64,000 bases of DNA from the NCBI GenBank assembly GCA_965209035.1, contig OZ242372.1, forward strand, positions 672,001 through 736,000, in the 5' to 3' direction. A program made the position numbers and the translations under genes. The notes under the pieces are model-generated. The model was not told the DNA's origin. It made no database searches and saw only the letters and a program-made list of their open reading frames with translations. The DNA comes from Gammaproteobacteria bacterium (GTDB taxonomy: Bacteria; Pseudomonadota; Gammaproteobacteria; CBDBNL01; JAAOII01). Below are positions 45,955-64,000 of this stretch, in pieces. Numbering within the stretch: position 1 is the first letter of the stretch; every line of letters begins with the position of its first letter.

Positions 45955-46061
45955 TCTATTTATATCATTATCCGGTAGTTACCTTTATCTATAGCATAAG
46001 TCATTCATTCCATATATACTATCAATATTATACATCTTACAGGCAAAAACTATGCATACCT

Positions 46062-46345
46062 TGTATGATCCCACCCATTTCCGGACTTTTTTTGTTTTTG
46101 TAAAAATTGGATCGGCGAGAGTTGTTGAGGGAAAAACGCGTATCAGCCGGCATAAAAGACCCGGGTGCTTGCCAATAGATTTCGAATAACAGATGAAAGG
46201 CAGAGACTAAGAATAAGTTAGAAGTTGGAAGTTGAACGAGCAGTCGTCTTATTTGTCGTGCTCTGTCCTGCCTCGTCCTGTCCCGCCCCGATCTGCCGGT
46301 CCGTTCCGGGGCTTCCCTCTTGCCGAACTCTCTTGCCGGCCTCTC
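46062..46345 (-). repeat. Cassette 3' module 1: IS481 right end (about 70 bp) plus conserved non-coding block
   Basis: TGTATGATCCCACCCATTTCCGGACTTTT...GATCGGCGAGAGTTGTTGAG is the reverse complement of the IS end at about 9865-9934. Confidence 0.88.
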
Positions 46346-48274
46346 TTACCGGCCTTGTGTCGAGAGGCCGCCCGGCAGGCAATTCAGGGCCGGGTATTGG
46401 CTGCTCGTGCCGAGATCCCAGACGCGGATGAAGGAGGCACCTGGCCCGTCATCGGTGGCATCTTCCATTTCCTCGCCGGTGTCCGGATCACACCAGAAGC
46501 TGCCCCAGACCTCATAGATGCTCCCGGCAAACTCGGTCGGCGATTGCAAGGCTGTCGTGCTATGACCATCGCCCAAATTACCGGCACTCATAGACTGCAT
46601 GGTGGTTTGATTGTCCCAGTAGGAAGCAATGACATCGGTGTCACTATTGTTGCTGCCGATCAATCCGCCGACATCACTGAGACCTGAAACAAGCCCGGGG
46701 GCGGCATAAGAATAATTAATTTGAGCTCCTGCCCCCGTCCCAACTAGGCCGCCAACACGCGGTCCGGTTGTTCCCTTAACACTTCCGCCGGACACATAAA
46801 CATGGCGAATATTCGCGCTATCCCCTTCCCCTATCAGGCCGCCAACAGCATTACTCCCGGCAACATTCACACCGGACACGGGCGCATAGCGAATATCCGC
46901 ATCCTGACCAAACCCAACCAGGCCGCCAACAGCATTACTCCCGGCAACATTCACACCGGACACGGGCGCATAGCGAATATCCGCATCCTGACCAAACCCA
47001 ACCAGGCCGCCAACATTGCTCCTCCCGGAAATATTCACACCGAACACGGACGCATAGCGAATATCCGCATTAAACCCCTGCCCAACCAGGCCGCCAACAT
47101 TATTAATCCCGGAAATATTCACACCGGACACGGACGCATAGCGAATATCCGCATTCTCGCCCTTCCCAACCAGGCCGCCAGCAAAAGAATCCGCCCCGGA
47201 AACAACTCCGCCGGATACGACGGCATAGCGAATATCCGCATCCTCGCCATTCCCAACTAGGCCGCCAACATTACTACTCCCGAAAACATTCACACCGGAT
47301 ACGGACGCATTGCGAATATCCGCATTCCTACCATACCCAACCAGGCCGCCAACATTAGTGGCACCGCTACTGACATTTGCATTCCGGAGATGCAGATTTT
47401 GGATATCGCCGGTTAAGGCACCAAACAACCCCACTCCATTGGCAGTATTGTTCGCAGAGATGAACAGATCTGCAATACGATAACCCCCGCCGTCAAAGAT
47501 TCCGGTATAAGACGTGCAAACAGTCGATGATGAACAAGAGCCGATCGGCTGCCAACCGCTGCCGGTCGTCCAGACAGACCGGTTGCCACTGCCCGCGGCA
47601 TAGGAATCCGCATCGCTAAAATTCAACGAGCGAGTTAATTCGTAGCCATTACAGCCGGAACTCGGGCAACCCACAGAACCCATAGCGGTAATATTGGGAA
47701 ACATCCCATCATCCGTTCCATTGCCATTGAGATTATCGCGCAGCCGTGCCAAGTCATCCAAAGTGCTGATTTCTATGAGGCTGTTATTATTGTCGTCCAC
47801 ATCTGTCTCATCCAAGATCTCGTCATTGTCATCGTCCGGGTCCTCCCTCAGGGTTGTTTGACATCCGGTAACCAAACTATCCGGCAGCTCATCGCTATCC
47901 GTGTCCACACTCGCACAGGCATCTGTCCGGAACGCATCGTTCGTATCCGCCACGCCATCATTGTCATCGTCCAAATCCTCGCCCGCATCGCGACAGCCGT
48001 CACGGTCATTGTCCGTAGATGCATTGGAAGTCCAGTCGGTATCGCCGCTCGGACAGGCGTCCGCAGTATCCGCAATGCCGTCCCCATCCAAGTCTGTGTT
48101 CGTTCCCCCGCCGGAACCGCCGCCACCGGAACCGCCACCGCCACAGGCGGCGAGTAGGACAACCGATAGAGTGATTGTCAATAATAAAATGATGCCGCTG
48201 CGTGCCGTTTGCCCGGCCGCGGCAATACATGCAATGCAGTTGCTACTGATAGTTTGTATATTAAATATGTTCAT
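46346..48274 (-). CDS. Surface lipoprotein 1: TSP3-like Asp-rich repeats plus GLUG-repeat domain
   Basis: Lipobox LLAAC-GGGG; DxDxDG repeats; 9 GGL(V/I)G units; C-terminus WDLGTSSQYPALNC. Confidence 0.85.
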   Translation of the reverse strand: MNIFNIQTISSNCIACIAAAGQTARSGIILLLTITLSVVLLAACGGGGSGGGGSGGGTNTDLDGDGIADTADACPSGDTDWTSNASTDNDRDGCRDAGEDLDDDNDGVADTNDAFRTDACASVDTDSDELPDSLVTGCQTTLREDPDDDNDEILDETDVDDNNNSLIEISTLDDLARLRDNLNGNGTDDGMFPNITAMGSVGCPSSGCNGYELTRSLNFSDADSYAAGSGNRSVWTTGSGWQPIGSCSSSTVCTSYTGIFDGGGYRIADLFISANNTANGVGLFGALTGDIQNLHLRNANVSSGATNVGGLVGYGRNADIRNASVSGVNVFGSSNVGGLVGNGEDADIRYAVVSGGVVSGADSFAGGLVGKGENADIRYASVSGVNISGINNVGGLVGQGFNADIRYASVFGVNISGRSNVGGLVGFGQDADIRYAPVSGVNVAGSNAVGGLVGFGQDADIRYAPVSGVNVAGSNAVGGLIGEGDSANIRHVYVSGGSVKGTTGPRVGGLVGTGAGAQINYSYAAPGLVSGLSDVGGLIGSNNSDTDVIASYWDNQTTMQSMSAGNLGDGHSTTALQSPTEFAGSIYEVWGSFWCDPDTGEEMEDATDDGPGASFIRVWDLGTSSQYPALNCLPGGLSTQGR

Positions 48275-48362
48275 AATTTATTTTTGTAATTGTGAATTAA
48301 TAAAGTTCCCTAAATAAGGAATAGTAATAATATACCATATTTCGCCGGATCTTCCTTTGAAT

Positions 48363-48661
48363 TGTATGATCCCACCCATTTCCGGACTTTTGTTGTTTTT
48401 GCAAAAACCGGATCGGCGAGAGTTGTTGAGGGAAAACGCGTATCAGCCGGCATAAAAGACCCGGGTGTTTGCCAATAGATTTCGAATAACAGATGAGAGG
48501 CAGAGGCTAAGAAGTGGGAAGTTGAACGAGCAGTCGTCTTATTTGTCGTGCTCTGCCTTGCCTCGCCCTGTCCCGCCCCGATCTGCCGGTCCGTTCCGGG
48601 GCTTCCCTCTTGCCGGCCTCTCTTGCCGGACTCTCTTGCCGGACTCTCTTGCCGGCCCCTC
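48363..48661 (-). repeat. Cassette 3' module 2: IS481 right end plus conserved block
   Basis: Closely similar to 46062-46345. Confidence 0.88.
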
Positions 48662-51259
48662 TTACCGGTCTTGTGCCGAGAGGCCGCCCGGCAGGCAATT
48701 CAGAGCCGGGTATTGGCTGCTCGTGCCGAGATCCCAGACGCGGATGAAGGGGGCGGGCAACTCGGTGGTGCTTTCCGCACCAGTGTTCGGGTTGCACCAA
48801 GCATTGCCCCAGTCGGCATAAATATTGTCCATCCCCGTGAAGTCGGTCGGCGATTGTAATTCCAGCGTGGTCTTACCTCCACCGGGATGACCGGCATCGA
48901 TTGGCTGTTCGGTGGTTACAGTATCCCAGTAGGAAGCAGTGACGACGGTGTCACTATTGTTGCCGATCAATCCACCGACAGCATTCTCACCTGAAACAAG
49001 CCCGGGGGCGGCATAAGAATAATTAATTTGAGCTTCTTCCCCATTCCCAACCAGGCCGCCGGCAACACCCCCGGAAACACTTCCGCCGAGCACATAGGCA
49101 TAGCGAATATCCGCATCCTCACCATACCCAACCAGGCCGCCAACAGCAACACTCACCCCGGAAACATTCACACCGGACACGGACGCATAGCCAATACCCG
49201 CATTCTCACCATCCCCAATCAGGCCGCCAACAGAAATACCTCCGAAAACACTTCCGCCGGACACGGACGCATAGCGAATATCCGCATCCTCACCATCCCC
49301 AACCAGGCCGCCAACAGAAAAAGGCCCGGAAACATCCACACCGGACACGGACGCATAGCCAATATCCGCATTAAGCCCCTGCCCAACCAGGCCGCCAGCA
49401 GCAGTATTCCCGATAACATTTCCGCCGGACACGGACGCATTGCGAATATCCGCATTCTCACCATTCCCAACCAGGCCACCGGCAACCCTTCCGATAACAC
49501 TTCCACCGGACACGGACGCATTGCGAATATCCGCATTCCCACCATTCCCAACCAGGCCACCGGCAACACTCCCGAAAACATCCACACCGGACACGGACGC
49601 ATTGCGAATATTCGCATTCCTACCATCCCCAACCAGGCCACCGGCAACCTTCCCGGCAACACTTCCGCCGGACACGGGCGCATTGCGAATATCCGCATTC
49701 CTACCATACCCAACCAGGCCGCCAGCAACAGTGGTGGCACCGCCACTGACATTTGCATTCAAGAGATGCAAATTTTGGATACCGCCGGTTAAGGCACCAA
49801 ACAACCCCACTCCATAGGCAGTATTGCTCGCAGAGATGAACAGATCTGCAATACGATAACCGCCGCCGTCAAAGATTCCGGTATAAGAGGTGCAATCATT
49901 CACAGCGGAACAAGAGCCGATCGGCTGCCAACCGCTGCCGGTCGTCCAGACAGTCGGGTTGCCACTGCCCGCGGCATAGGAATCCGCATCACCAAAATTC
50001 AACGAGCGAGTCAGCTCATAACCCACACAGCCGCCGTCATCGTCATCCGGGCAGCCCATAGAACCCACAGAGGTGATCTCGGGGATACGGTCATCATCCG
50101 CCCCATCGCCGTTCAGATCATCGCGCAGCCGTGCCAAGTCATCCAAAGTGTGGATCTCGATCAAGCCATTATTATTGTCATCCACATCCTCTGTCAAGGT
50201 AGTATTCACACCGGTCGTGCAACCGGCAGCGAGTTTGTCCGGTGCTCCGTCTCCATCCGTGTCGATGCTCGCACAGGCATCCGTCACAAACGCATCGTCC
50301 GGATCCGCCACGCCATCATTGTCATCGTCCGAATCTTCATCTGTGTCGCGACAGCCGTCACCGTCATGGTCCGCGGACGCATTGGAAGTCCAGCCAGTAA
50401 CACCGGTCGGACAAGTATCGGCCGTATCCGCCACGCCATCATTGTCATCGTCCGAATCTTCATCTGTGTCGCGACAGCCGTCACCGTCATGATCCGCGGA
50501 CGCATTGGAAGTCCAGCCGGTAACACCGATCGGACAAGTATCGGCCGTATCCGCCACGCCATCATTGTCATCGTCATCATCACAGGCATCACCGCCGTCA
50601 TCCGCATTGTCCGTGTTGGCTTGGTCCGCATTGGCAACCAACGGACAATTATCGTTATCATCATCCTCACCGTCACCGTCAATATCTGTGCCTACACCCG
50701 CTCCCGTTGTGCTTGACACAGGAGGTGAGGTCACGATAATGCCGTTCTTATAACGCACCGCAACTGTGATGCTGTAGGTGATGTTATTGGTTAAATCCGT
50801 AATATTGTAGCTGACCCAAGCACGCGGCGAAACATCCGCCACGGTAGAACTAAATTCTTTTGTTGTGCCACCATCGCTCGCATCGTCACGGCGTGTGGTA
50901 ATAACGAACCCGTCGATATTATCCAAGGCCGGATTAGTCCAATCCACGAGAATATAATCCTCACCGGCCAGAGCCTGCATATTGAAAACAGCCAGGAAAT
51001 TCTGAGAAGCAGGATCGCCGCCGCCACCGATGCCATCGCTGCCGCCACAACCTGTCAGGACCAAACCGAACATACCCGCCAGCAGTACACCGTAAAAACG
51101 AGCCAGTATGCACATCCGTCGTGCCCTATTGGGTTCGGGAAAAGCCTTAAAGGCATTAAAAGCATTAAAAATATTAAGGAGACGCACAGATACCGTGCCT
51201 CTTTGTTCGCGGCGCATTGCTTTCGCCGACCGCACAGGAAAAAAGTGTAACTGATTCAT
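48662..51259 (-). CDS. Surface lipoprotein 2: FN3-like domain, TSP3-like repeats, GLUG domain
   Basis: Lipobox LVLTGC; WTNP...YNITDLTNNITYSITV; two 41-aa repeats; 10 GGL(V/I)G units. Confidence 0.85.
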   Translation of the reverse strand: MNQLHFFPVRSAKAMRREQRGTVSVRLLNIFNAFNAFKAFPEPNRARRMCILARFYGVLLAGMFGLVLTGCGGSDGIGGGGDPASQNFLAVFNMQALAGEDYILVDWTNPALDNIDGFVITTRRDDASDGGTTKEFSSTVADVSPRAWVSYNITDLTNNITYSITVAVRYKNGIIVTSPPVSSTTGAGVGTDIDGDGEDDDNDNCPLVANADQANTDNADDGGDACDDDDDNDGVADTADTCPIGVTGWTSNASADHDGDGCRDTDEDSDDDNDGVADTADTCPTGVTGWTSNASADHDGDGCRDTDEDSDDDNDGVADPDDAFVTDACASIDTDGDGAPDKLAAGCTTGVNTTLTEDVDDNNNGLIEIHTLDDLARLRDDLNGDGADDDRIPEITSVGSMGCPDDDDGGCVGYELTRSLNFGDADSYAAGSGNPTVWTTGSGWQPIGSCSAVNDCTSYTGIFDGGGYRIADLFISASNTAYGVGLFGALTGGIQNLHLLNANVSGGATTVAGGLVGYGRNADIRNAPVSGGSVAGKVAGGLVGDGRNANIRNASVSGVDVFGSVAGGLVGNGGNADIRNASVSGGSVIGRVAGGLVGNGENADIRNASVSGGNVIGNTAAGGLVGQGLNADIGYASVSGVDVSGPFSVGGLVGDGEDADIRYASVSGGSVFGGISVGGLIGDGENAGIGYASVSGVNVSGVSVAVGGLVGYGEDADIRYAYVLGGSVSGGVAGGLVGNGEEAQINYSYAAPGLVSGENAVGGLIGNNSDTVVTASYWDTVTTEQPIDAGHPGGGKTTLELQSPTDFTGMDNIYADWGNAWCNPNTGAESTTELPAPFIRVWDLGTSSQYPALNCLPGGLSAQDR

Positions 51260-51434
51260 TATTTTCTATTGTTTATTATTGTTTTCTATTATGATTAATA
51301 TTAATATTTTTTTATAGTTCATATTTTTTGTGTGAAATGTTTCCTTGAATTTTACAAAATTCAAAGAAACATCTCACGATGCTGCACTAGTTACTTGAAT
51401 TTAAGCATTATTATAACTTTAATTTTCAAAATCA

Positions 51435-51638
51435 TGTGTATTCCCGCCTATTTTCGGACTTTTTTTATTTTTGTAAAAACCGGATCGGCGAGAGTTGTTT
51501 GAGAGCATAATGGGGACGTTCGCGATGAGCTTGGCGTTGAATGCCGGCATATCCTTGTAAAAACGAACCGGTATGCACATCCGTCGTGCCCCTTTGTTCG
51601 CGCACCCACCGCACAGGAAAAAAGTGTAACTGATTCAT
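51435..51638 (-). pseudogene. Collapsed cassette: lipoprotein 5' end fused to an IS481 transposase 3' end and degenerate right IR
   Basis: ORF 51638-51465 reads MNQLHFFPVR...ERPHYALKQLSPIRFLQK*; 51435-51556 matches the IS 3' end. Confidence 0.8.
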
Positions 51639-51744
51639 TATTTTCTATTGTTTATTATTGTTTTCTGTCATTATTAATATTAATTTTTGAGAATTATATG
51701 CTTTGTGACCCATAAAAAAGTAAGTGTCATTATTATTCCATTAA

Positions 51745-51925
51745 ATGAGAGTTGAGGAGTAAAATATGAGCATAAATACTGGTAAATACAAGAAAAAAGA
51801 GGGTTATTTTCTGTTCGAGACATTCAGAATGGAAGTTTTGGCAGATCCCCGGGCTGTTTGCAATGGATCTTGAGGCAAATGGCAAATTTTTTGAAGTGCA
51901 TAGGTTGTCAAGTGTATAATTCCCC
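51745..51925 (+). mobile_element. Degenerate remnant of the IS1595/IS1016-like element
   Basis: GTAAAATATGAGCATAAATACTGGTAAATACAAG...TTTTGGCAGAT...GGATCTTGAGGC matches the 5' part of the element at 61340-61460 in the opposite orientation. Confidence 0.7.
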
Positions 51926-51982
51926 TTTTTTGAGACATCACTCAACCATTATTATAACTTTAATTTTCAAAATCATGCTGTA

Positions 51983-52561
51983 TGTATGATCCCACCCATT
52001 TCCGGACTTTTTTTGTTTTTGCAAAAACCGGATTGGCGAGAGTTGTTTGTGGGCATCGCGGGGATCTGCTAAATGATATCAACGCATCCCTCTCATTTCA
52101 AATCCGCAGGGCAGCCGCACCCGCACCCGCACCCGTATAGCGCACTGTGTCGCAAGCGAGAGTGCCGCGACAGGTTTTGAACAACACGCCGCCGCTCGCA
52201 CCGCGGAGACCGGAGTAGTTGGCAGTCCGGCTTACACGCCTTATATTTTTATTCTTGCGGCACTTGAACCCGGCACCCTCCTGTTTGCGGGTTCCTTAAT
52301 AGACGGACTTATTTTTGCAAAAACCGGATCGGCGAGAGCTGTTGAGGGAAAAACGTGTATCAGCCGGCATAAAAGACCCGGGTGCCTGCCAATAGATTTC
52401 GAATAACAGAGATGAGAGGCAGAGGCTAAGAAGTTGGAAGTTGGAAGTTGAACGAGCAGTCGTCTTATTTGTCGTGCTCTGCCTTGCCTCGTCCTGTCCC
52501 ACCCCGAACTGCCGGTCCGTTCCGGAGCTTCCCGCTTGCCGGCCTCTCTTACCGGCCCCTC
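51983..52561 (-). repeat. Cassette 3' module 3: IS481 right end, diverged IS481 leader homolog, second partial IS end, conserved block
   Basis: IR starts at 51983; 52085-52200 resembles the IS leader; CGGACTTATTTTTGCAAAAACCGGATCGGCGAGAG at about 52304. Confidence 0.82.
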
Positions 52562-55500: not shown

Positions 55501-58500
55501 GACAAGTATCCGCAAGATCCTCCACATCGTCATTGTCATCGTCCGAATCTTCATCTGTGTCGCGACAGCCGTCACCGTCATGGTCCGCGGACGCATTGGA
55601 AGCCCAGCCGGTAACACCGGCCGGGCAAGTATCCGCAAGATCCGCCACATCGTCATTGTCATCGTCCGAATCTTCATCTGTGTCGCGACAGCCGTCACCG
55701 TCATGGTCCGCGGACACATTGGAAGTCCAGCCGGTAACACCGATCGGGCAAGTATCGGCCGTATCCGCCACGCCATCATTGTCATCGTCCGAATCTTCAT
55801 CTGTGTCGCGACAGCCGTCACCATCATGGTCCGCGGACACATTGGAAGTCCAGCCGGTAACACCGATCGGGCAAGTATCGGCCGTATCCGCCACGCCATC
55901 ATTGTCATCGTCCGAATCTTCATCTGTGTCGCGACAGCCGTCACCATCATGGTCCGCGGACGCATTGGAAGTCCAGCCAGTAACACCGGTCGGACAAGTA
56001 TCCGCAAGATCATCCACATCGTCATTGTCATCGTCCGAATCTTCATCTGTGTCGCGACAGCCGTCACCGTCATGGTCCGCGGACGCATTGGAAGTCCAGC
56101 CAGTAACACCGGTCGGACAAGTATCCGCAAGATCCTTCACATCGTCATTATCATCGTCCGAATCTTCATCTGTGTCGCGACAGCCGTCACCGTCATGGTC
56201 CGCGGACGCATTGGAAGTCCAGCCGGTAACACCGGCCGGGCAAGTATCCGCAAGATCCTCCACATCGTCATTGTCATCGTCCGAATCTTCATCTGTGTCG
56301 CGACAGCCGTCACCATCATGGTCCGCGGACACATTGGAAGTCCAGCCGATAACACCGGTCGGACAAGTATCCGCAAGATCCTCCACACCGTCATTGTCAT
56401 CGTCCGAATCTTCATCTGTGTCGCGACAGCCGTCACCGTCATGGTCCGCGGACGCATTGGAAGTCCAGCCGGTAACACCGGCCGGACAAGTATCCGCAAG
56501 ATCCTCCACATCGTCATTGTCATCGTCCGAATCTTCATCTGTGTCGCGACAGCCGTCACCGTCATGGTCCGCGGACGCATTGGAAGTCCAGCCGGTAACA
56601 CCGGTCGGGCAAGTATCCGCAAGATCCTCCACATCGTCATTGTCATCGTCCGGATCTTCATCTGTGTCGCGACAGCCGTCACCGTCATGGTCCGCGGACA
56701 CATTGGAAGTCCAGCCAATCACACCGGTCGGGCAAGTATCCGCAAGATCCTCCACATCGTCATTGTCATCGTCCGAATCTTCATCTGTGTCGCGACAGCC
56801 GTCACCATCATGGTCCGCGGACGCATTGGAAGTCCAGCCGGTAACACCGGCCGGACAAGTATCCGTACTGTCTCCCAGACCATCATTGTCATCGTCCGGA
56901 TCTTCATCTGTGTCGCGACAGCCGTCCCCGTCATGGTCCGCGGACACATTGGAAGTCCAGCCGGTAACACCGGTCGGGCAAGTATCCGCAAGATCCTCCA
57001 CATCGTCATTGTCATCGTCCGGATCTTCATCTGTGTCGCGACAGCCGTCACCGTCATGGTCCGCGGACGCATTGGAAGTCCAGCCAATCACACCGGTCGG
57101 GCAAGTATCGGCCGTATCCGCCACGCCATCATTGTCATCGTCCGAATCTTCATCTGTGTCGCGACAGCCGTCACCATCATGGTCCGCGGACACATTGGAA
57201 GTCCAGCCGGTAACACCGGTCGGACAAGTATCGGCCGTATCCGCCACGCCATCATTGTCATCGTCCGGATCTTCATCTGTGTCGCGACAGCCATCACCGT
57301 CATGGTCCGCGGACGCATTGGAAGTCCAGCCGGTAACACCGGTCGGGCAAGTATCGGCCGTATCCGCCACGCCATCATTGTCATCGTCCGAATCTTCATC
57401 TGTGTCGCGACAGCCGTCACCGTCATGGTCCGCGGACGCATTGGAAGTCCAGCCGGTAACACCAGTCGGGCAAGTATCGGCCGTATCCGCCACATCGTCA
57501 TTGTCATCGTCCGGATCTTCATCTGTGTCGCGACAGCCGTCACCGTCATGATCCGCGGACACATTGGAAGTCCAGCCGGTAACACCGGTCGGACAAGTAT
57601 CGGCCGTATCCGCCACGCCATCATTGTCATCGTCCGAATCTTCATCTGTGTCGCGACAGCCGTCACCGTCATGGTCCGCGGACGCATTGGAAGTCCAGCC
57701 GGTAACACCGGTCGGACAAGTATCCGTACTGTCTCCCAGACCATCATTGTCATCGTCCGAATCTTCATCTGTGTCGCGACAACCGTCACCGTCATGGTCC
57801 GCGGACGCATTGGAAGTCCAGCCGGTAACACCGGTTGGGCAAGTATCCGCAAGATCATCCACATCGTCATTGTCATCGTCCGAATCTTCATCTGTGTCGC
57901 GACAGCCGTCACCGTCATGGTCCGCGGACGCATTGGAAGTCCAGCCAATCACACCGGTCGGGCAAGTATCCGCAAGATCATCCACATCGTCATTGTCATC
58001 GTCCGAATCTTCATCTGTGTCGCGACAGCCGTCACCATCATGGTCCGCGGACACATTGGAAGTCCAGCCGGTAACACCGGTCGGGCAAGTATCCGCAAGA
58101 TCATCCACATCGTCATTGTCATCGTCCGGATCTTCATCTGTGTCGCGACAGCCGTCACCATCATGGTCCGCGGACGCATTGGAAGTCCAGCCGGTAACAC
58201 CGGTCGGACAAGTATCCGCAAGATCATCCACGCCATCATTGTCATCGTCCGGATCTTCATCTGTGTCGCGACAGCCGTCACCATCATGGTCCGCGGACGC
58301 ATTGGAAGTCCAGCCGGTAACACCGGTCGGACAAGTATCCGCAAGATCCTCCACATCGTCATTGTCATCGTCCGGATCTTCATCTGTGTCGCGACAGCCA
58401 TCACTGTCATGGTCCGCGGACGCATTGGAAGTCCAGCCAATCACACCGGTCGGGCAAGTATCCGTACTGTCTCCCAGACCATCATTGTCATCGTCCGAAT

Positions 58501-60754
58501 CTTCATCTGTGTCGCGACAGCCGTCACCGTCATGGTCCGCGGACGCATTGGAAGTCCAGCCGGTAACACCGATCGGGCAAGTATCCGCAAGATCATCCAC
58601 ATCGTCATTGTCATCGTCCGAATCTTCATCTGTGTCGCGACAGCCGTCACCGTCATGGTCCGCGGACGCATTGGAAGTCCAGCCGGTAACACCGGCCGGG
58701 CAAGTATCCGCAAGATCCTCCACATCGTCATTGTCATCGTCCGAATCTTCATCTGTGTCGCGACAGCCGTCACCGTCATGGTCCGCGGACGCATTGGAAG
58801 TCCAGCCGGTAACACCGGCCGGGCAAGTATCCGCAAGATCCTCCACATCGTCATTGTCATCGTCCGAATCTTCATCTGTGTCGCGACAGCCGTCACCGTC
58901 ATGGTCCGCGGACGCATTGGAAGTCCAGCCGGTAACACCGGCCGGGCAAGTATCCGCAAGATCCTCCACATCGTCATTGTCATCGTCCGAATCTTCATCT
59001 GTGTCGCGACAGCCGTCACCGTCATGGTCCGCGGACGCATTGGAAGTCCAGCCGGTAACACCGGTCGGGCAAGTATCCGCAAGATCCTCCACACCGTCAT
59101 TGTCATCGTCCGGATCTTCATCTGTGTCGCGACAGCCGTCACCGTCATGGTCCGCGGACACATTGGAAGTCCAGCCAATCACACCGGTCGGGCAAGTATC
59201 CGCAAGATCCTCCACATCGTCATTGTCATCGTCCGAATCTTCATCTGTGTCGCGACAGCCGTCACCGTCATGGTCCGCGGACACATTGGAAGTCCAGCCG
59301 GTAACACCGGCCGGGCAAGTATCCGCAAGATCCTCCACATCGTCATTGTCATCGTCCAAGTCTTCTATTAAGGTAGTATTTGTGCAACCGACAATCAAAC
59401 TATCCGGCATGCCATCCTGATCCGTATCAAGGCTCGCACAGGCATCCGTCACAAACGCATCGTCCGCATCCGCCACGCCATCATTGTCATCGTCCGGATC
59501 TTCATCTGTGTCGCGACAGCCGTCACCGTCATGGTCCGCGGACACATTGGAAGTCCAGCCGGTAACACCGGCCGGACAAGTATCGACCGTATCCGCCACG
59601 CCATCATTGTCATCGTCCAAGTCTTCTATTAAAGTAGTATTTGTGCAACCGACAATCAAACTATCCGGCATACCATCCTGATCCGTATCGGTACTCGCAC
59701 AGACATCCGTCACAAACGCATCGTCCGGATCCGCCACGCCATCATCGTCATCGCCCGAATCTTCACCTGTGTCGCGACAGCCATCACCGTCATGGTCCGC
59801 GGACGCATTGGAAGTCCAGCCGGTAACACCGGCCGGACAAGTATCGTCCGTATCCGGCACGCCATCATTGTCATCGTCCGGATCTTCTGTTAAGGTAGTA
59901 TTCACACCGGTCGTGCAGCCGGCAGATAATCTGTCCGGATTGCCGTCCTCATCCGTATCGGTGCTCGCACAGGCATCCGTCACAAACGCATCGCCCGTAT
60001 CCGGCACGCCATCATTGTCATCATCCGGATCTTTCGTCAAGTCTGTTTGACAACCCGCAACCACACTATCCGGCTTGCCGTCATTATCCGTGTCGGTACT
60101 CGCACATGCATCCGTCGGAAACGCATCTACGTCATTCAAGGTATCATCATCGTCAATATCTGTGCCTACACCCGCATCCGCTCCCGTTGTACTTGACACA
60201 GGAGGTGAGGTCACGATAGTGCCGCTCTCATAACGCACCGCAATCGTGATGTTGTAGGCGATGTTATTGGTTAAGCTCGTAATGTTGTAGATGACCCGAG
60301 CAAGCGGCGAAACATCCGCCATGGTAGAATTAAGTTCTTTTCTGCCGCCATCGCTCGCATCGTCACTGCGTGTGGTAATAACGAACCTGTCGATATTATC
60401 CGGAGCCGGATTAGTCCAACCCACAAGAATATAATCCGCACCGGCCAGAGTCTGGATATTGGAAACAGCCGGGGAATTCTGCGGAGCGGGATCGCCACCG
60501 CCACCGATGCTGCCGCCGCCACCGATGCTGCCGCTGCCGCCGCTGCCACAACCTGTCAGGACCAAACTGAACATACCCGCCAGCAGCACACCGTAAAAAC
60601 TAGCCGGTATGCACATCCGTCGTGCCCTATTGGGTTCGGGGAAAGCCTTTTTAAAGGCATTAAGAGTATTAAGGAGACGCACAGATACCGCCCCTCTTTG
60701 TTCGCGGCGCATTGCTTTCGCCGACCGCACAGGAAAAAAGTGTAACTGATTCAT
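52562..60754 (-). CDS. Giant surface lipoprotein 3 (2730 aa): FN3-like domain, about 42 x 41-aa TSP3-like repeats, GLUG domain
   Basis: Lipobox LVLTGC; repeat DTCPTGVTGWTSNASADHDGDGCRDTDEDSDDDNDDVEDLA; 10 GGL(V/I)G units. Confidence 0.9.
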   Translation of the reverse strand: MNQLHFFPVRSAKAMRREQRGAVSVRLLNTLNAFKKAFPEPNRARRMCIPASFYGVLLAGMFSLVLTGCGSGGSGSIGGGGSIGGGGDPAPQNSPAVSNIQTLAGADYILVGWTNPAPDNIDRFVITTRSDDASDGGRKELNSTMADVSPLARVIYNITSLTNNIAYNITIAVRYESGTIVTSPPVSSTTGADAGVGTDIDDDDTLNDVDAFPTDACASTDTDNDGKPDSVVAGCQTDLTKDPDDDNDGVPDTGDAFVTDACASTDTDEDGNPDRLSAGCTTGVNTTLTEDPDDDNDGVPDTDDTCPAGVTGWTSNASADHDGDGCRDTGEDSGDDDDGVADPDDAFVTDVCASTDTDQDGMPDSLIVGCTNTTLIEDLDDDNDGVADTVDTCPAGVTGWTSNVSADHDGDGCRDTDEDPDDDNDGVADADDAFVTDACASLDTDQDGMPDSLIVGCTNTTLIEDLDDDNDDVEDLADTCPAGVTGWTSNVSADHDGDGCRDTDEDSDDDNDDVEDLADTCPTGVIGWTSNVSADHDGDGCRDTDEDPDDDNDGVEDLADTCPTGVTGWTSNASADHDGDGCRDTDEDSDDDNDDVEDLADTCPAGVTGWTSNASADHDGDGCRDTDEDSDDDNDDVEDLADTCPAGVTGWTSNASADHDGDGCRDTDEDSDDDNDDVEDLADTCPAGVTGWTSNASADHDGDGCRDTDEDSDDDNDDVDDLADTCPIGVTGWTSNASADHDGDGCRDTDEDSDDDNDGLGDSTDTCPTGVIGWTSNASADHDSDGCRDTDEDPDDDNDDVEDLADTCPTGVTGWTSNASADHDGDGCRDTDEDPDDDNDGVDDLADTCPTGVTGWTSNASADHDGDGCRDTDEDPDDDNDDVDDLADTCPTGVTGWTSNVSADHDGDGCRDTDEDSDDDNDDVDDLADTCPTGVIGWTSNASADHDGDGCRDTDEDSDDDNDDVDDLADTCPTGVTGWTSNASADHDGDGCRDTDEDSDDDNDGLGDSTDTCPTGVTGWTSNASADHDGDGCRDTDEDSDDDNDGVADTADTCPTGVTGWTSNVSADHDGDGCRDTDEDPDDDNDDVADTADTCPTGVTGWTSNASADHDGDGCRDTDEDSDDDNDGVADTADTCPTGVTGWTSNASADHDGDGCRDTDEDPDDDNDGVADTADTCPTGVTGWTSNVSADHDGDGCRDTDEDSDDDNDGVADTADTCPTGVIGWTSNASADHDGDGCRDTDEDPDDDNDDVEDLADTCPTGVTGWTSNVSADHDGDGCRDTDEDPDDDNDGLGDSTDTCPAGVTGWTSNASADHDGDGCRDTDEDSDDDNDDVEDLADTCPTGVIGWTSNVSADHDGDGCRDTDEDPDDDNDDVEDLADTCPTGVTGWTSNASADHDGDGCRDTDEDSDDDNDDVEDLADTCPAGVTGWTSNASADHDGDGCRDTDEDSDDDNDGVEDLADTCPTGVIGWTSNVSADHDGDGCRDTDEDSDDDNDDVEDLADTCPAGVTGWTSNASADHDGDGCRDTDEDSDDDNDDVKDLADTCPTGVTGWTSNASADHDGDGCRDTDEDSDDDNDDVDDLADTCPTGVTGWTSNASADHDGDGCRDTDEDSDDDNDGVADTADTCPIGVTGWTSNVSADHDGDGCRDTDEDSDDDNDGVADTADTCPIGVTGWTSNVSADHDGDGCRDTDEDSDDDNDDVADLADTCPAGVTGWASNASADHDGDGCRDTDEDSDDDNDDVEDLADTCPIGVTGWTSNASADHDGDGCRDTDEDSDDDNDGVADTDDTCPAGVTGWTSNASADHDGDGCRDTDEDSDDDNDDVEDLADTCPTGVTGWTSNASADHDGDGCRDTDEDSDDDNDDVEDLADTCPIGVTGWTSNASADHDGDGCRDTDEDSDDDNDDVADLADTCPAGVTGWTSNASADHDGDGCRDTDEDSDDDNDGVADPDDAFVTDACASIDTDEDGNPDRLSAGCTTGVNTTLTEDPDDDNDGVADTADTCPIGVIGWTSNASADHDGDGCRDTDEDPDDDNDDVADLADTCPAGVTGWTSNASADHDGDGCRDTDEDSDDDNDGVADTADTCPTGVTGWTSNASADHDGDGCRDTDEDSDDDNDGVADTDDTCPTGVIGWTSNASADHDGDGCRDTDEDSDDDNDGVADTGDAFVTDACASTDTDEDGMPDRLSAGCTTGVNTILTEDVDDDNNGLIEIHTLDDLARLRDDLNGDGADDDRIPEITSVGSMGCPDDDDGGCVGYELTRSLNFGDADSYAAGSGNPTVWTTGSGWQPIGSCSSVNDCTSYTGIFDGGGYRIVDLFISASNTAYGVGLFGALTGEIQNLHLLNADVIGGATAVGGAVGGLVGYGEHADIRNASVSGGSLFGNIAGGLVGYGRNADIRNASMSGGSVSGNIAGGLVGQGLNADIRNAFMSGGSVFGNVAGGLVGQGLNADIRNASVSGGNVIGTIAAGGLVGQGLNADIHNASVSGGSVSGSTAAGGLVGDGENADIGYASVSGVSVIGSTAVGGLVGDGENADIGYASVSGGDVSGSNYVAGNNYVGGLVGYGEDADIRHAYVLGGSVSGGAGSLSARDLVGIGGLVGSGIGAQINYSYAAPGLVSGENAVGGLIGRTNSGTDVIASYWDTETTGQPIGAGHPGGGKTMLELQSPTDFTGTDNIYADWGNFWCNPNTGEERESSSQPLGFIRVWDLGTSSQYPALNCLPGGLSAQDR
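54278..59345 (-). repeat. 123-bp coding tandem repeat (36 contiguous units plus a 4-unit block; 2 more units nearer the 5' end)
   Basis: 54917-59345 spans 36 x 123 bp and 54278-54770 spans 4 x 123 bp. Confidence 0.93.
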
Positions 60755-60770
60755 TACTTTCTATTGTTTA

Positions 60771-61475
60771 GGGGCTAGACTAATTGAGGGGTCTTTTTCT
60801 TAACAATTTTAACATGACTTGATAGAAGTTTTCGTTCCGGTGATTGAAACGGAACTCGCATTCTTTCAAGTGCAACAAACCAGACACGTCTTGGTATAAC
60901 TCCAAAAGATTTCTATCCCATTGATGTAATTCGTTCCCACAGCAAACTCCTTGTCTCCATGACGAACCAGATAATGTTTCTTATAAACCATATCGATCAA
61001 TCCATTATAACCCTTCCGGCTATCCGTGCGGATGATACTATCCTCACCGACACGACCACGAATCACGCGTAATAACCGGCTTTTTGAGCAGTCCGGCACA
61101 ATCTCCGCAGACACTTTGCCACCGCGTTTGAGCACACCAACGACAATGGTCTTGCTGCCGGCACCGCGACCACGAGGAGCGGGAATACGTTTTCGTCCAA
61201 AATAACTCTCATCCACTTCAAATTCACCACAGGATGTTTTTTGACAGCGACAGGCCCCCGCCAGCCGTTGCCGGAACATCATCAAATATTTGTTCACCGC
61301 ATTACGATTCAATCCGGTCAGTATTGCTATCTTATTGGCCTCAAGATCCGGGGCAAATAGCTTGATCATCTGCCAAAATTTCCGCTCCAAGATTCTGAAA
61401 CGGAAAACATACCGGTTTTTCCTTGTATTTACTGGCATTTATGCTCATATTTTACCTCTCAATTAGTCTAGCCCC
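60771..61475 (-). mobile_element. IS1595-family (IS1016-like) insertion sequence, 705 bp
   Basis: Perfect 18-bp IRs GGGGCTAGACTAATTGAG and CTCAATTAGTCTAGCCCC. Confidence 0.9.
60779..61438 (-). pseudogene. IS1595/IS1016-type transposase, frameshifted near the C-terminus
   Basis: FEVDESYFG, RGRGAGSK, RTDS, INGIEIFWS; ORF stops at 60866 while LHLKECEFRFNHR continues in another frame. Confidence 0.8.
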
Positions 61476-61536
61476 TTATTTTTTGAGCATCACTCAACCA
61501 TTATTATAACTTTAATTTCCAAAATCATGTGTATCA

Positions 61537-62057
61537 TGCATATCATTCCACCCATTTCCGGACTTTTGTTGTTTTTGTAAAAATTGGATCGGCGAGAGTT
61601 GTTTGTGAGCATCGCGGGGATCTGCTAAATGATATCAACGCATCCCTCTCATTTCAAATCCGCAGGGCAGCCGCACCCGCACCCGTATAGCGCACTGTGT
61701 CGCAAGCGAGAGTGCCGCGACAGATTTTGAACAACAGGCCGCCGCCCGCACCGCGGAGACCGGAGTAGTTGGCAGTCCGGCTTACTCGCCTTATATTTTT
61801 ATTCTTGCGGCACTTGAACCCGGCACCCTCCTGTTTGCGGGTTCCTTAATAAGTTGAGGGAAAAACGCGTATCAGCCAGCATAAAAGACCCGGGTGCCCG
61901 CCAATAGATTTCGAATAATAGATGATGAGAGGCAGAGGCTAAGAAGAAGTTGGAAGTTGGGCGAGCAGTCGTCTTATTTGTCGTGCTCTGCCCTGCCTCG
62001 TCCTGTCCCGCCCCGATCTGCCGGTCCGTTCCGGGGCTTCCCTCTTGCCGGCCTCTC
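61537..62057 (-). repeat. Cassette 3' module 4: degenerate IS481 right end, diverged leader homolog, conserved block
   Basis: CCACCCATTTCCGGACTTTTGTTGTTTTTGTAAAAATTGGATCGGCGAGAG, then sequence closely similar to 52050-52300. Confidence 0.82.
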
Positions 62058-63886
62058 TTACCGGTCTTGTGCCGAGAGGCCGCCCGGCAGGCAATTCAGA
62101 GCCGGGTATTGGCTGCTCATGCCGAGATCCCAGACGCGGATGAAACCGGGCGGTTGGGAAGAACTTGTCATTTCCTCGCCGGTGTCCGGATCACACCAGA
62201 AGTTACCCCAGTCGGCATAGATGCTCCCGGCAAAATCGGTCGGCGATTGCAAGTCTGTCGTGTTATGACCCTCGCCAAAATTACCGGCACTCATAGGCCG
62301 CTTGGTGGTTTGATTGTCCCAATAGGTGGCAGTGACGACGGTGTCACCATCGGTGCTGCCGATCAATCCACCGACAGTACCGGAACCTGAAACAGGCCCG
62401 GGGGCGGCATAAGAATAATTAATTTGAGCTCTTGCCCCCTTCCCAACCAGGCCGCCAGCAGCAGCACGATTCCCGCTGCCCCCGGAAACAATTCCGCCGC
62501 GCACATAGGCATGGCGAATATCCGCATCCTCACCATTCCCAACCAGGCCACCAACAGAAGAACCAAAGGAAACATCCACACCGAACACGAACGCATAGCG
62601 AATATCCACATCCTCACCATTCCCAACCAGGCCGCCGGCAACATTCCCGGAAACACTTCCACCGGACACGGACGCATAGCGAATATCCGCATTCCCACCA
62701 TCCCCAACCAGGCCGCCGGCAACATTCCCGGAAACACTTCCGCCGGACACGGACGCATTGCGAATATCCGCATCCTCACCATTCCCAACCAGGCCACCGG
62801 CAACATCCCCGATAACACTTCCGCCGGACACGGACGCATGGCGAATATCCGCATCCTCACCATACCCAACCAGGCCACCGGCAACATTCCCGAAAACACT
62901 TCCGCCGGACACGGACGCATTGCGAATATCCGCATTCCTACCATCCCCAACCAGGCCGCCCACAGCGCCGCCCACAACAGCGGTATCGCCACTGACATCC
63001 GCATTCAAGAGATGCAGATTTTGGATCTCACCGGTTAAGGCACCAAACAACCCCACTCCATAGGCAGTATTGTTCGCAGAGATGAACAGATCGGCAATAC
63101 GATAACCGACGCCGTCAAAGATTCCGGTATAAGAGGTGCAAACATCCACAGCGGAACAAGAGCCGATCGGCTGCCAGCCGCTGCCACTGAGATTCGTCCA
63201 AACAACTTGGTTGCCACTGCCCTCGGCATAGAAATCCGCATCACCAAAATTCAACGAGCGAGTCAGCTCATAACCCACACAGCCGCCGTCATCGTCATCC
63301 GGATCCGGGCAGCCCATAGAGCCCACAGAGGTGATCTCGGGGATACGGTCATCATCCTCACCATCGCCGTTCAGATCATCGCGCAGCCGCGCCAAGTCAT
63401 CCAAAGTGTGGATCTCTATCAAGCCATTATTATTGTCATCCACATCCTCATCGTCATCCCGACAACCGTCACGATCATCGTCCGTCCCCGCCGAAGAAGT
63501 CCAGCCAATCACACCGCGCGGACAAGTATCCGCAAGATCCTCCACACCGTCATTGTCATCATCTTCATCACAGGCATCACCGTCGTCATCCGCATTGTCC
63601 GTGTTGGCTTGGTCCGCATTGGCAACCAACGGGCAATTATCGTTATCATCATCCTCACCGTCACCGTCATCGTCCATATCTTCCGTCAAGGGCGATGTCG
63701 TGCAACCCGGAACAAGGCTATCCGGATTGCCGTCATTATCCGTGTCGGTACTGGCACAGGCATCTGTCCGGAACGCATCTGCGCCATTCACAGTATCATC
63801 ATCGTCAATATCTGTGCCTACACCCGCTCCCGCTCCCGTTGTGCTTGACACAGGAGGTGAGGTCCCGATAGTGCGGCTCTTATAAC
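62058..63886 (-). pseudogene. Surface lipoprotein paralog 4, 5'-truncated (no lipobox, FN3 part lost); GTG at 63851 could start a 597-aa product
   Basis: Homology to paralogs 2 and 3 stops at about 63886; in-frame TAA at about 63972; TSP3-like repeats and 8 GGL(V/I)G units intact. Confidence 0.7.
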
Positions 63887-64000
63887 TTGACTTCGGAAAC
63901 TTCTTAAAAAACCTTGATTTTATAAGGGTTTGCGGGCCGTTTTTATACCCTGCCAGCCTTTGCCTTGCCCCTTAGTGCCGGTTATTGAACAAAGCGGGTT

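What the first reader, a model, noticed from the sequence alone, without database searches (positions are those of the whole stretch)
46062..63886. Array of surface-lipoprotein cassettes, each ending in an IS481 right end: possible transposase-driven adhesin cassette system
Seen: five units (three full genes, one 5'-truncated gene, one relic) share the minus-strand layout AT-rich leader, lipoprotein gene, conserved block of about 210 bp (absent in the relic), then the last ~70 bp of the IS481 element ending GGAAATGGGTGGGATCATACA. Ends are at 46062, 48363, 51435, 51983 and about 61537, with a partial end at about 52304. Three ends closely match the intact IS at 7-10 kb, yet I saw no intact IS481 transposase or left IR in the array. 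Units 3 and 4 also keep a diverged IS leader between gene and end. Inference: the genes are cargo of a non-autonomous IS481 derivative, amplified, excised or reordered using transposase in trans, somewhat like integron cassettes, to vary a host-interaction surface. Simple tandem duplication of an IS-scarred unit is the null model.
Basis: partly seen in the sequence, partly recalled or inferred. Interest (0 to 1): 0.85.

Follow-up and report, generated by a model that had tools for sequence, protein, structure and literature searches.

The report
IS-scarred mosaic lipoprotein gene array
A cluster of surface-lipoprotein genes is separated by leftover ends of a jumping gene that habitually lands just in front of promoters; the leftovers look like inherited scars shuffled by recombination between gene copies, not like a working cassette system.

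Summary
Four paralogous GLUG/TSP3/fn3 lipoprotein genes plus one 5' relic lie on the minus strand. Each is followed by a roughly 190-220 bp block and the last 66-100 bp of an IS481-like element.

The same block-plus-IS-end tail tags 14 genes at 6 unlinked loci of this 2.24 Mb genome, and all share one junction at IS position about 1240. The array has no left inverted repeat. I found no target duplications around units and no nearby recombinase.

Genome-wide, the IS right tip sits 27-29 nt before a TATAAT-like hexamer in 35 of 72 distinct flanks, against a 4.5% random expectation for a wider window. So each IS end in the array marks the next gene's promoter.

The units are mosaics. Nearest relatives switch along the unit and between loci, and the tails are better conserved than the coding DNA.

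Best reading: scars of a promoter-targeting IS, spread by duplication and gene conversion. One true IRL-gene-IRR element does exist elsewhere, in two copies.

The transposase-driven cassette idea is only partly supported.

The parts
7332..8630 (+). Intact IS481-like element, copy A (reference for the scars). It starts TGCAT and ends CATACA. The 348-aa transposase ORF at 7596-8642 runs through the right IR.
8636..9934 (+). Intact IS481-like element, copy B. It sits head-to-tail behind copy A with a 5-nt spacer. Its tip lies 28 nt before TATAAT of the next gene.
44974..45954 (-). Peptidase_M23 gene, the unrelated gene downstream of the array.
   Evidence: synteny with the next gene is kept in 3 of 3 relatives looked at
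46027..46061 (-). Flank after the last IS tip. It holds a 5-nt spacer, an 8-nt match to the IS left tip (TGCATAGT), and a TATAAT starting at offset 29 (46027-46032), in front of the M23 gene.
46062..46126 (-). IS right end (IS about 1240-1305) of the unit 1 tail, type A.
46127..46345 (-). Conserved block of unit 1. It begins with 13-nt CCGGYAAGAGRGG repeats that overlap the stop codon. It has no similarity to the IS.
46346..48274 (-). Gene w1, 642 aa. It has a lipobox (LLAAC) and TSP3 and GLUG repeats, with the L1-type head.
48275..48362 (-). L1 leader of w1, with TGGTATATT. The hexamer starts at offset 28 after the IS tip (48329-48334).
48363..48427 (-). IS right end of the unit 2 tail, type A.
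48428..48661 (-). Conserved block of unit 2, with five 13-nt repeats.
48662..51259 (-). Gene w2, 865 aa. It has a lipobox (LTGC) and fn3, TSP3 and GLUG modules, with the L2-type head.
51260..51436 (-). L2 promoter and leader of w2.
51437..51556 (-). Older IS right-end piece (IS 1161-1304, 76% identity) with no block. It is fused to the first roughly 90 nt of a family gene.
51557..51982 (-). Relic. It holds an L2 promoter, an inserted short repeat element, the rest of the leader, and the ATG plus about 30 codons of a family gene.
51983..52343 (-). Distal part of the type B tail of unit 3. Reading along the minus strand it holds IS 1240 to about 1284 (52309-52343), then a diverged IS-leader-like insert (52083-52308), then IS 1205-1305 (51983-52082).
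52344..52561 (-). Conserved block of unit 3.
52562..60754 (-). Gene w3, 2730 aa, with about 45 tandem copies of a 123-nt (41-aa) repeat at roughly 54130-59700.
60771..61475 (-). Short IS1595-family element (a 190-aa transposase piece with inverted ends), inserted between the L2 promoter and the w3 start codon.
61476..61540 (-). L2 promoter in front of w3, upstream of the IS1595-like insertion.
61541..61852 (-). Distal part of the type B tail of unit 4. It holds the diverged IS-leader-like insert and IS 1205-1295 with a decayed tip. The short IS 1240-1284 piece is missing.
61853..62057 (-). Conserved block of unit 4.
62058..63886 (-). Gene w4, 3' part. An IS4-like element interrupts it at about 63877-63886. 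The 5' part lies beyond the window.

Best explanation
The array is a local cluster of a very large paralogous family of predicted surface lipoproteins: 77 ORFs, about 10% of the genome. The IS pieces between the genes are inherited scars, not working cassette ends.

The IS481-like element of this genome inserts in one orientation, with a 5-bp duplication, so that its right tip lies 27-29 nt before a -10-like hexamer. It therefore accumulates directly in front of promoters, including those of the lipoprotein genes.

Inferred history:
1. One such insertion lay between two family genes.
2. It lost everything up to IS position about 1240 in a single deletion, which joined it to the 3' flank (the 'block') of the upstream gene.
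3. That one junction was then copied with the gene 3' ends, by tandem duplication and by gene conversion between paralogs within and between loci.

In this reading the conserved head (leader plus signal peptide) and the conserved tail (C-terminus, block, IS end) act as homology arms around a variable middle. The 66-bp IS end is passive portable homology. It can also let the tail be copied onto any family gene that has an IS of this kind downstream.

Shown: the anatomy, the single junction, the promoter-proximal habit of the IS, the mosaic similarity, and the lack of a left end, target duplications or a recombinase.

Inferred: the order of events, and homologous recombination as the spreading agent.
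For: - Single origin: all 14 tails at 6 loci share the same block/IS junction at IS position about 1240. The block has no similarity to the IS (score 19, against 19.8 +/- 2.1 in shuffles).
- No left IR in the array. At the two loci where an IRL lies upstream of a tail-bearing unit, the 5 bases outside the IRL (ATGCA, CTGCA) do not match those after the right tips.
- 0 of 14 tail IS ends carry the CCAGAAA variant seen in 20 of 20 full-length copies.
- Promoter habit of the IS: in 35 of 72 distinct right-tip flanks a TATAAT-like hexamer starts at offset 27-29, and in 38 of 72 at offset 22-34. The corresponding figures are 4.5% of 20,000 random positions and 6 of 37 left-tip flanks read outward.
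- After 8 flanks that are themselves IS sequence are dropped, 35 of 64 have the hexamer at offset 26-31. Of those 35, 30 are followed by an ORF of at least 80 aa on the same strand within 250 nt.
- At least 12 of 20 full-length copies have intact 5-bp duplications, and all 20 have open transposase frames.
- 23 of 77 family genes have an IS right end in the same orientation 20-260 nt upstream. Seventeen of these have no block, and their truncation points differ.
- Decay in the array: one gene is reduced to about 90 nt and fused to IS 1161, one is split by an IS4-like element, and one has an IS1595-like element in its leader.
- Mosaicism: nearest neighbours change from segment to segment and between loci. 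The last 150 nt of w1 are 98% identical to c1198, about 480 kb away, while its block halves are closest to w4 and e1878. The c1198 block (tail B) is 99-100% identical to the c1202 block (tail A).
- The tail was not found in the 30 other genomes searched.
Against: - Units occur at unlinked loci, and terminal units end at the IS tip next to unrelated flanks: the M23 gene, another gene at 1128 kb, and other IS ends.
- Two terminal tips, and the IS piece that directly follows a third terminal tip, lie at the IS's usual distance from a -10-like hexamer (offset 29 for w1 and b1128). That means a transposase once made those junctions.
- The tails are better conserved than the coding DNA. The block averages 92.6% pairwise identity and the IS 35-mer 93.0%. 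The last 300 coding nt average 82.8%, and 4-fold degenerate sites diverge by 23%.
- A genuine IRL-gene-IRR unit exists in two copies.
- The hexamers have no consensus -35 partner. A two-hexamer promoter scan found nothing at the leaders (positions 6-11 carry no signal). So their promoter status is inferred from position only.
- No read evidence could be obtained either way.
Confidence: 0.6

Rival explanations
1. Transposase-mediated mobilisation. The units were dispersed as composite or cassette-like transposons. Each was bounded on the left by the IRL of an IS (or IS remnant) sitting in front of the gene's promoter, and on the right by the 66-bp IS end of the tail, with the transposase of intact copies acting in trans. 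Arrays grew by repeated targeted insertion in front of the promoter of a resident unit.
For: - There are 14 tagged units at 6 unlinked loci.
- At 5 of the 6 loci, the first or only unit has a longer IS remnant in the same orientation in front of its promoter: IS 5-1297 in pieces, 5-332+1141-1304, 983-1306, 1160-1303 and 1161-1304.
- Terminal tips lie at the canonical offset from -10-like hexamers of unrelated genes.
- A 3.3-kb unit of IRL(6-78), promoter, gene and IS(918-1305) is bounded exactly by both IS tips in two different contexts, at 89.5% identity.
- 20 copies with open transposase frames are available in trans.
Against: - No IRL lies anywhere in the window's array.
- No matching 5-bp duplications were found at the 2 loci that still have an IRL upstream, or at either copy of the IRL-gene-IRR unit.
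- IS remnants stand in front of 23 of 77 family genes whether or not a tail is present, so the upstream remnant is not specific to tagged units.
- Direct repeats of right ends are not a known substrate for rve-type DDE transposases (recalled knowledge of the IS3/IS481 type, not tested here).
- Mosaic similarity shows that recombination alone moves the segments.
Confidence: 0.2
2. Exapted regulatory tail. The block plus IS end is kept by selection because it works as a 3' UTR or terminator for the upstream gene, or as the upstream promoter region (insulator or UP-like element) for the downstream gene. Its spread simply follows the genes that benefit from it.
For: - The tail is about three times less diverged than 4-fold degenerate sites of the adjoining coding DNA.
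- Genome-wide there are more partial right ends than partial left ends, 70 against 41. That would fit retention of the piece next to promoters.
- In Bordetella, IS481 transcription reads into flanking genes and forms hybrid promoters (PMC6161684, passages read).
Against: - No Rfam family matches the region.
- The consensus fold gave no clear terminator and was not tested for covariation. The terminator scan found none in the tails.
- The tail stands in front of unrelated promoters and of other IS ends as well as family genes.
- The coding divergence is inflated by mosaic exchange with more distant paralogs, so the contrast in rates does not prove constraint.
- No RNA data could be found.
Confidence: 0.1
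3. Integron-like site-specific cassette system. A dedicated recombinase excises and reinserts the units at the IS tip.
For: Only the regular layout of gene, conserved block and conserved end.
Against: - The whole genome has a single tyrosine-recombinase match, at 2.117 Mb, far from all six loci.
- Each unit has its own leader, start codon and lipobox rather than sharing one expression site.
- The conserved end is part of a DDE-transposase IS, not an attC-like site.
Confidence: 0.03

Closest known systems
Mobile insertion cassettes (MICs) and transporter IS: IS ends flanking passenger genes. The term appears in PMC3129680 and PMC4337579 (search listing and start of abstracts only). MIC231 of Bacillus cereus is recalled, not seen.
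   Same: Passenger genes lie next to IS ends with no transposase of their own, while intact copies elsewhere could act in trans. The two-copy IRL-gene-IRR unit at G000:C1:575.7-579.0 kb and 1361.7-1365.0 kb has exactly this layout.
   Different: The array units have only a right end, in direct repeat from unit to unit, with no left IR and no target duplication. Even the two-copy unit shows no duplication.
TnGBS, ISLre2 and ISKra4 elements: Mutator-like DDE transposases that insert 15-17 bp upstream of the -35 of sigma-A promoters in a fixed orientation (PMC3942029, abstract and passages read).
   Same: [quoted passage not shown] The right end faces the promoter, and there is no sequence consensus at the duplicated site.
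   Different: The transposase here is of the rve (IS481/IS3) type, not Mutator-like. The tip lies 27-29 nt before the -10 hexamer, which is only about 5 nt before where a -35 would be. No -35 consensus is visible.
IS481 of Bordetella pertussis (PMC6161684, passages read).
   Same: A many-copy IS of the same broad transposase type, whose transcription reads into neighbouring genes. IS-mediated rearrangements shape the genome.
   Different: Those passages describe an outward promoter at the left end and -35 boxes in the IR forming hybrid promoters. They do not describe a fixed 28-nt spacing to a resident -10. IS481's NCTAGN target and 6-bp duplication are recalled. Here the duplication is 5 bp with no consensus. 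The transposase scores below the NCBIfam IS481 cut-off (178 bits against 224).
Multigene surface-protein families diversified by gene conversion, such as pilE/pilS, vlsE and msp2 (recalled, no paper read).
   Same: Conserved ends surround a variable middle, with mosaic similarity among copies at different loci.
   Different: Every copy here has its own leader, start codon and lipobox. There is no single expression site fed by silent cassettes.
Integron gene cassettes (recalled).
   Same: Serial units, each ending in a conserved element.
   Different: No integrase is near, no attC-like site was looked for or seen, and the genes carry their own leaders.

Membership tests
IS481 family (the element that left the scars) | DDE transposase with an rve-type catalytic core and an N-terminal helix-turn-helix | tested here: met
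   Pfam matches rve_3 (9.8e-14), rve and HTH_32/HTH_28
IS481 family (the element that left the scars) | Scores over the curated family model | tested here: inconclusive
   NCBIfam transpos_IS481 is the best hit (178.3 bits, E 2.3e-52) but falls below its cut-off of 224. IS3 comes second at 106 bits. The closest full-length relatives outside this genome are at most 46% identical.
IS481 family (the element that left the scars) | Single transposase ORF without a programmed frameshift, short terminal IRs, and a short target duplication (features as recalled) | tested here: met
   One ORF of 346-348 aa, open in 20 of 20 full copies. The ends are TGCATRRTCTCA and GGGAYCATACA. A 5-bp duplication is seen in at least 12 of 20 copies.
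Mobile insertion cassette (array units) | Left and right IS inverted repeats flanking the passenger gene | tested here: not met
   Right ends only. The IRL pattern with up to 3 mismatches is absent from 46000-64000, and BLAST finds no left-end piece in the array.
Mobile insertion cassette (array units) | Target-site duplication around the unit | tested here: not met
   Flanks at the two loci that retain an IRL do not match the flanks after the right tips.
Mobile insertion cassette (the two-copy unit outside the window) | IRL and IRR bound the unit exactly in different contexts, with no transposase | tested here: met
   Homology between the two copies (89.5% over 3378 columns) starts at TGCATAGTC and ends at the right tip. 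The transposase remnant (IS 918-1305) carries stop codons.
Mobile insertion cassette (the two-copy unit outside the window) | Target-site duplication | tested here: not met
   No matching 5-mers. Both copies abut older IS right-end remnants.
Integron cassette array | Adjacent tyrosine-recombinase integrase | tested here: not met
   One PF00589 match in the whole genome, at C1:2117491-2118009
Integron cassette array | attC-type recombination site at the end of each cassette | not tested
   No attC model was run. The conserved end is IS sequence.
Composite transposon | Two complete IS copies flanking the cargo | tested here: not met
   No full IS copy lies in or beside the array. The nearest are at window 7332-9934.
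Promoter-targeting transposable elements (TnGBS/ISLre2/ISKra4 kind) | [quoted passage not shown] | tested here: met
   35 of 72 tips lie 27-29 nt before a TATAAT-like hexamer. Random positions give 4.5% (for the wider offset 22-34 window) and left tips 6 of 37. 30 of 35 are followed by an ORF.
Promoter-targeting transposable elements (TnGBS/ISLre2/ISKra4 kind) | Mutator-like transposase with the signature motif described for that group | tested here: not met
   The transposase is rve-type. It works like that group but is not a member.
Silent-cassette gene-conversion systems | One expression site plus promoterless donor cassettes | tested here: not met
   Each unit has a leader with a -10-like hexamer, an ATG and a lipobox. 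Mosaicism itself is present.

The most novel reading that the evidence does not exclude
An IS481-like element has evolved promoter-directed, oriented integration, with its tip 28 nt before the -10 hexamer. This parallels the unrelated TnGBS/ISLre2 transposases. Because of this habit it brackets promoter-led lipoprotein genes with directly repeated IS ends. That creates IRL-gene-IRR cassettes and IS-end-tagged units, which the transposase or recombination at the IS ends then spreads. On this reading the IS is an engine for expanding and reshuffling a host-interaction lipoprotein family that now fills a tenth of a symbiont-like genome.
Probability: 0.25. Interest if true: 0.75.

Novelty: new variant of a known kind. 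Interest (0 to 1): 0.5.

Why it matters
The array itself turns out to be largely ordinary genome erosion and paralog recombination in an IS-rich genome. That reading guards against seeing IS scars as a cassette machine.

Two things behind it are worth more attention.

First, the IS shows a sharp, oriented preference for a site 27-29 nt before -10-like hexamers. In the papers I found, such promoter targeting is described only for Mutator-like elements (TnGBS, ISLre2, ISKra4; PMC3942029). My searches found no report of it for an IS481-type transposase. If real, it is an independent origin of promoter-directed transposition and a handle on how a DDE transposase can read a promoter.

Second, a lipoprotein family with eukaryote-like adhesion modules makes up about 10% of the genome. 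The family's nearest relatives are MAGs labelled Gammaproteobacteria, Candidatus Porisulfidus and Oxydemutatoraceae. The family is mosaic between loci, and at least once it has been caught between IS ends. That makes it a tractable case of how mobile DNA and recombination build surface variation in an uncultured bacterium.

Tried and rejected
- Read-level test for circles, deletions or reordering. Three runs from one sample hold about half of the sampled words, but only as short Logan contigs (most pieces 145-450 nt within the array). The listed joints have sides of 20-46 nt and link paralogous repeats. The many different loose ends at 48361-48363 simply reflect the many IS copies. A fourth run, of raw reads from another sample, gave 170 reads, mostly 90-95% alike. 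Nothing can be concluded. No RNA holder was listed.
- Relatives. The tail was not found in the 30 other genomes searched. The transposase matched only 2 of 40 other genomes, at 34-40% identity. A metagenome scan gave a single locus at 41% identity. So the promoter-distance rule could not be replicated in an independent host.
- Synteny. The M23 gene and its downstream neighbour are kept in 3 of 3 relatives. A family-like gene lies within the 11-12 kb upstream in 1 of 3. This shows only that the adjacency is lineage-specific.
- Rfam scan of 45800-64000 at E up to 1: 0 matches.
- Consensus fold of the 14 tails: no clear terminator. It was not pursued, and covariation was not counted.
- Two-hexamer promoter scan: 12 sites against 8.1 +/- 2.5 expected, none at the leaders after the IS tips. 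The -10-like hexamers lack a -35 partner.
- The block as a decayed IS part: rejected.
- The shared flank of the units at 563 kb and 1878 kb looked like evidence for a common insertion site. It is the terminal repeat of another (IS4-like) element.
Supplementary tables of PMC3942029 and PMC6161684 were not seen. They may list IS481-type elements or spacings that bear on the novelty claim.

Full report
**What is there.** The window is G000:C1:672001-736000 of a 2.24-Mb genome in two contigs.

On the plus strand at 7332-8630 and 8636-9934 lie two head-to-tail copies of a 1.3-kb insertion sequence, 95% identical to each other. Its 346-348-aa ORF has an rve-type DDE core and an N-terminal helix-turn-helix. 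The best NCBIfam hit is the IS481 model, but below that model's cut-off (178 bits against 224). The ends read TGCATRRTCTCA and GGGAYCATACA. At least 12 of 20 full-length copies in the genome are flanked by a 5-bp duplication with no consensus. All 20 have an open transposase frame.

It holds. The 21-nt tip motif occurs without mismatch at 46062, 48363 and 51983 on the minus strand (5 matches in the window, 0.00 expected). BLAST adds older or partial right-end pieces at 51437-51556, 61541-61638 and 52309-52343.

The ORFs at 46346-48274, 48662-51259, 52562-60754 and 62058-63886 are paralogs, 80-88% identical over their shared parts. They carry GLUG, TSP3 and fn3 modules and lipoboxes.

Read along the minus strand, the layout is as follows:
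- Gene w4 is split by an IS4-like element. Its 5' part lies beyond the window.
- A type B tail follows w4.
- Next come a promoter and a 705-bp IS1595-like insertion.
- Gene w3 carries about 45 copies of a 123-nt repeat.
- A type B tail follows w3.
- The relic consists of a promoter, an inserted short repeat and about 90 nt of a gene start, fused to IS position 1161.
- The w2 promoter and gene come next, followed by a type A tail.
- An 88-nt leader and gene w1 come next, followed by a type A tail.
- The array ends at the promoter and gene of an M23 peptidase.

**The tails.** Type A is the block plus IS 1240-1305. Type B is the block, IS 1240 to about 1284, a roughly 225-nt insert, and then IS 1205-1305.

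The insert is a diverged IS leader. Its local alignment score to IS positions 181-278 is 33, against 18.0 +/- 2.4 in shuffles. The block is unrelated to the IS.

**Beyond the window.** The family has 77 ORFs sharing the C-terminal 119 residues. Together they span 225 kb, about 10% of the genome.

The block plus IS end follows 14 of these genes at six loci: 563 kb; 718-736 kb (this array); 1128-1133 kb; 1198-1210 kb (five in a row); 1365 kb; and 1878 kb. All 14 share the same junction between block and IS position about 1240, so the junction arose once.

The tail was not found in the 30 other genomes searched.

**Why the IS ends stand where they do.** I listed what follows every right tip in the genome. 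The flanks are unrelated, but very often a TATAAT-like hexamer starts about 28 nt after the tip.

| Measure | Result |
|---|---|
| Distinct tip flanks with the hexamer at offset 27-29 | 35 of 72 (9, 19 and 7 at the three offsets; every other single offset has at most 4) |
| Distinct tip flanks with the hexamer at offset 22-34 | 38 of 72 |
| Random genome positions (20,000), offset 22-34 | 4.5% |
| Left-tip flanks read outward, offset 22-34 | 6 of 37 |
| Flanks left after dropping 8 that are IS sequence, hexamer at offset 26-31 | 35 of 64, with the information peak at positions 28-35 |
| Of those 35, followed within 250 nt by an ORF of at least 80 aa on the same strand | 30 |

By my reading, 11 of the 20 full-length copies are among the 35. 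About 30 of the 35 flanks are unrelated to the lipoprotein leaders.

So this IS inserts, in one orientation, just in front of promoters. Its 5-bp duplication lies where the upstream edge of a -35 element would be.

One caveat applies. There is no -35 consensus, and a two-hexamer scan finds nothing at these leaders. Promoter status is therefore inferred from position.

In the array, each tip obeys the same rule or is close to it:

| Tip followed by | Offset of the hexamer |
|---|---|
| M23 gene | 29 |
| w1 | 28 |
| relic promoter | 26 |
| w2 (older fragment) | 21 |

Genome-wide, 23 of 77 family genes have a right end in the same orientation 20-260 nt upstream. Four of these are full-length IS copies. 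Seventeen have no block, and their truncation points differ. The general association is therefore IS end in front of a promoter, not IS end behind a gene.

**Tests of the mobile-cassette idea.**
- The array has no left IR.
- At the two loci where a decayed IS with a left IR stands in front of a tagged unit, the five bases outside the left IR do not match those after any right tip.
- None of the 14 tail ends has the CCAGAAA variant found in all 20 active copies.
- The genome has one tyrosine-recombinase match, far from all six loci.

On the other side, terminal units do end exactly at the tip against unrelated DNA. One family gene does sit between IS ends. A 3.3-kb unit made of IS 6-78, a promoter, the gene and IS 918-1305 occurs at 575.7-579.0 kb and at 1361.7-1365.0 kb. 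The two copies are 89.5% identical, and the homology starts and stops exactly at the two IS tips, in different contexts. Neither copy shows a target duplication.

**Recombination.** The tails are better conserved than the genes:

| Segment | Mean pairwise figure |
|---|---|
| Block | 92.6% identity |
| First 35 nt of the IS end | 93.0% identity |
| Last 300 coding nt | 82.8% identity |
| 4-fold degenerate sites | 23% divergence |
| First and second codon positions | 24% divergence |

The IS end is no better conserved than the non-IS block, so there is no sign of selection on the IR itself.

Nearest neighbours change along the unit and across loci. The last 150 coding nt of w1 are 98% identical to a unit 480 kb away. 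The w1 block halves are closest to two other units. A type B unit and a type A unit at 1198-1204 kb have 99-100% identical blocks. Three C-terminal sequence types are distributed independently of tail type.

This is the signature of gene conversion between paralogs. It also explains why coding divergence looks inflated relative to the tails.

**Conclusion.** The most economical account has four steps:
1. A promoter-targeting IS inserted between two family genes.
2. It was cut down to its last 66 bp by one deletion.
3. The resulting tail was copied with the gene ends by tandem duplication and by conversion.
4. The IS end served only as extra homology, notably where another copy of the IS already sat downstream of a family gene.

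I put this at about 0.6. Transposase-mediated movement of IRL-to-66-bp-end composites remains possible (about 0.2). An exapted regulatory role for the tail gets about 0.1. An integron-like system is very unlikely.

**Comparison with what is known.** Elements made of IS ends around passenger genes without a transposase are called mobile insertion cassettes (PMC3129680 and PMC4337579, listing and start of abstracts only). The two-copy unit fits that layout. The array units do not.

[quoted passage not shown] The present IS works alike, but it has an rve-type transposase and a different spacing.

For IS481 of Bordetella, the passages I read (PMC6161684) describe read-through and hybrid promoters, not a fixed spacing to a resident -10. 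My three literature searches on the point found no report of promoter targeting by an IS481-type element. The supplements were not available.

**Limits.**
- The read data were uninformative.
- The promoter rule rests on one genome.
- No expression data exist.

Noticed in passing
genome-wide; in the window at 9934 and following, 46062, 48363 and 51983: The IS right tip lies 27-29 nt before a TATAAT-like hexamer in 35 of 72 distinct flanks, in one orientation, with unrelated 5-bp duplications. This looks like promoter-directed integration by an rve/IS481-type transposase. It is comparable to TnGBS/ISLre2 but in an unrelated transposase family.
   Followed up: partly
G000:C1:575690-578979 and 1361667-1365029 (outside the window): A 3.3-kb unit made of IS 6-78, a promoter, an intact family lipoprotein gene and IS 918-1305. 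It is present twice at 89.5% identity and is bounded exactly by the two IS tips, with no target duplication. It has the layout of a mobile insertion cassette.
   Followed up: partly
window 7332-9934; also G000:C1:1176729-1179331, 884784-886128, 2060239-2061655 and 1365030: IS copies sit directly behind another right tip or right-tip remnant. There are tandem dimers with a spacer of 0-5 nt, and one copy inserted inside an old tip with the duplication GGATT. This suggests repeated hits at the same promoter-proximal site, or targeting of the element's own end.
   Followed up: partly
window 7596-8642 and 8900-9940: The transposase ORF has no stop codon inside the element. It reads through the right IR and ends in the flank, so every copy has a different C-terminal tail.
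   Followed up: no
window about 54130-59700 (inside 52562-60754): About 45 tandem copies of a 123-nt (41-aa) repeat, 88-97% identical, in the 2730-aa lipoprotein. Three related copies lie in w2 at 50185-50730.
   Followed up: no
window 46310-46345, 48600-48661, 52520-52561 and 62030-62057, plus the 10 other tails: A 13-nt repeat, CCGGYAAGAGRGG, overlaps the stop codon and varies from 2 to 5 copies between units.
   Followed up: no
window 60771-61475: A 705-bp IS1595-family mini-element with inverted ends and a 190-aa transposase piece sits between the promoter and the start codon of the largest gene.
   Followed up: partly
window 51700-51925; also near G000:C1:123708 and 566380: A short repeat of about 230-260 nt (it starts GGGGAATTATACACTTGACAACC) is inserted in an L2 leader. 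It recurs after other IS tips and is probably a miniature element of another family.
   Followed up: no
whole genome: The lipoprotein family has 77 ORFs covering about 10% of the genome. Its nearest relatives by protein are MAGs labelled Gammaproteobacteria, Candidatus Porisulfidus and Oxydemutatoraceae, at 30-38% identity. Partial IS right ends (70) outnumber partial left ends (41).
   Followed up: partly
window 46049-46056 (minus strand, 5 nt after the last tip): An 8-nt exact match to the IS left tip (TGCATAGT) follows the w1 tail tip after a 5-nt spacer, as in the IS dimers. It may be the footprint of a lost second IS copy. It remains unexplained.
   Followed up: no
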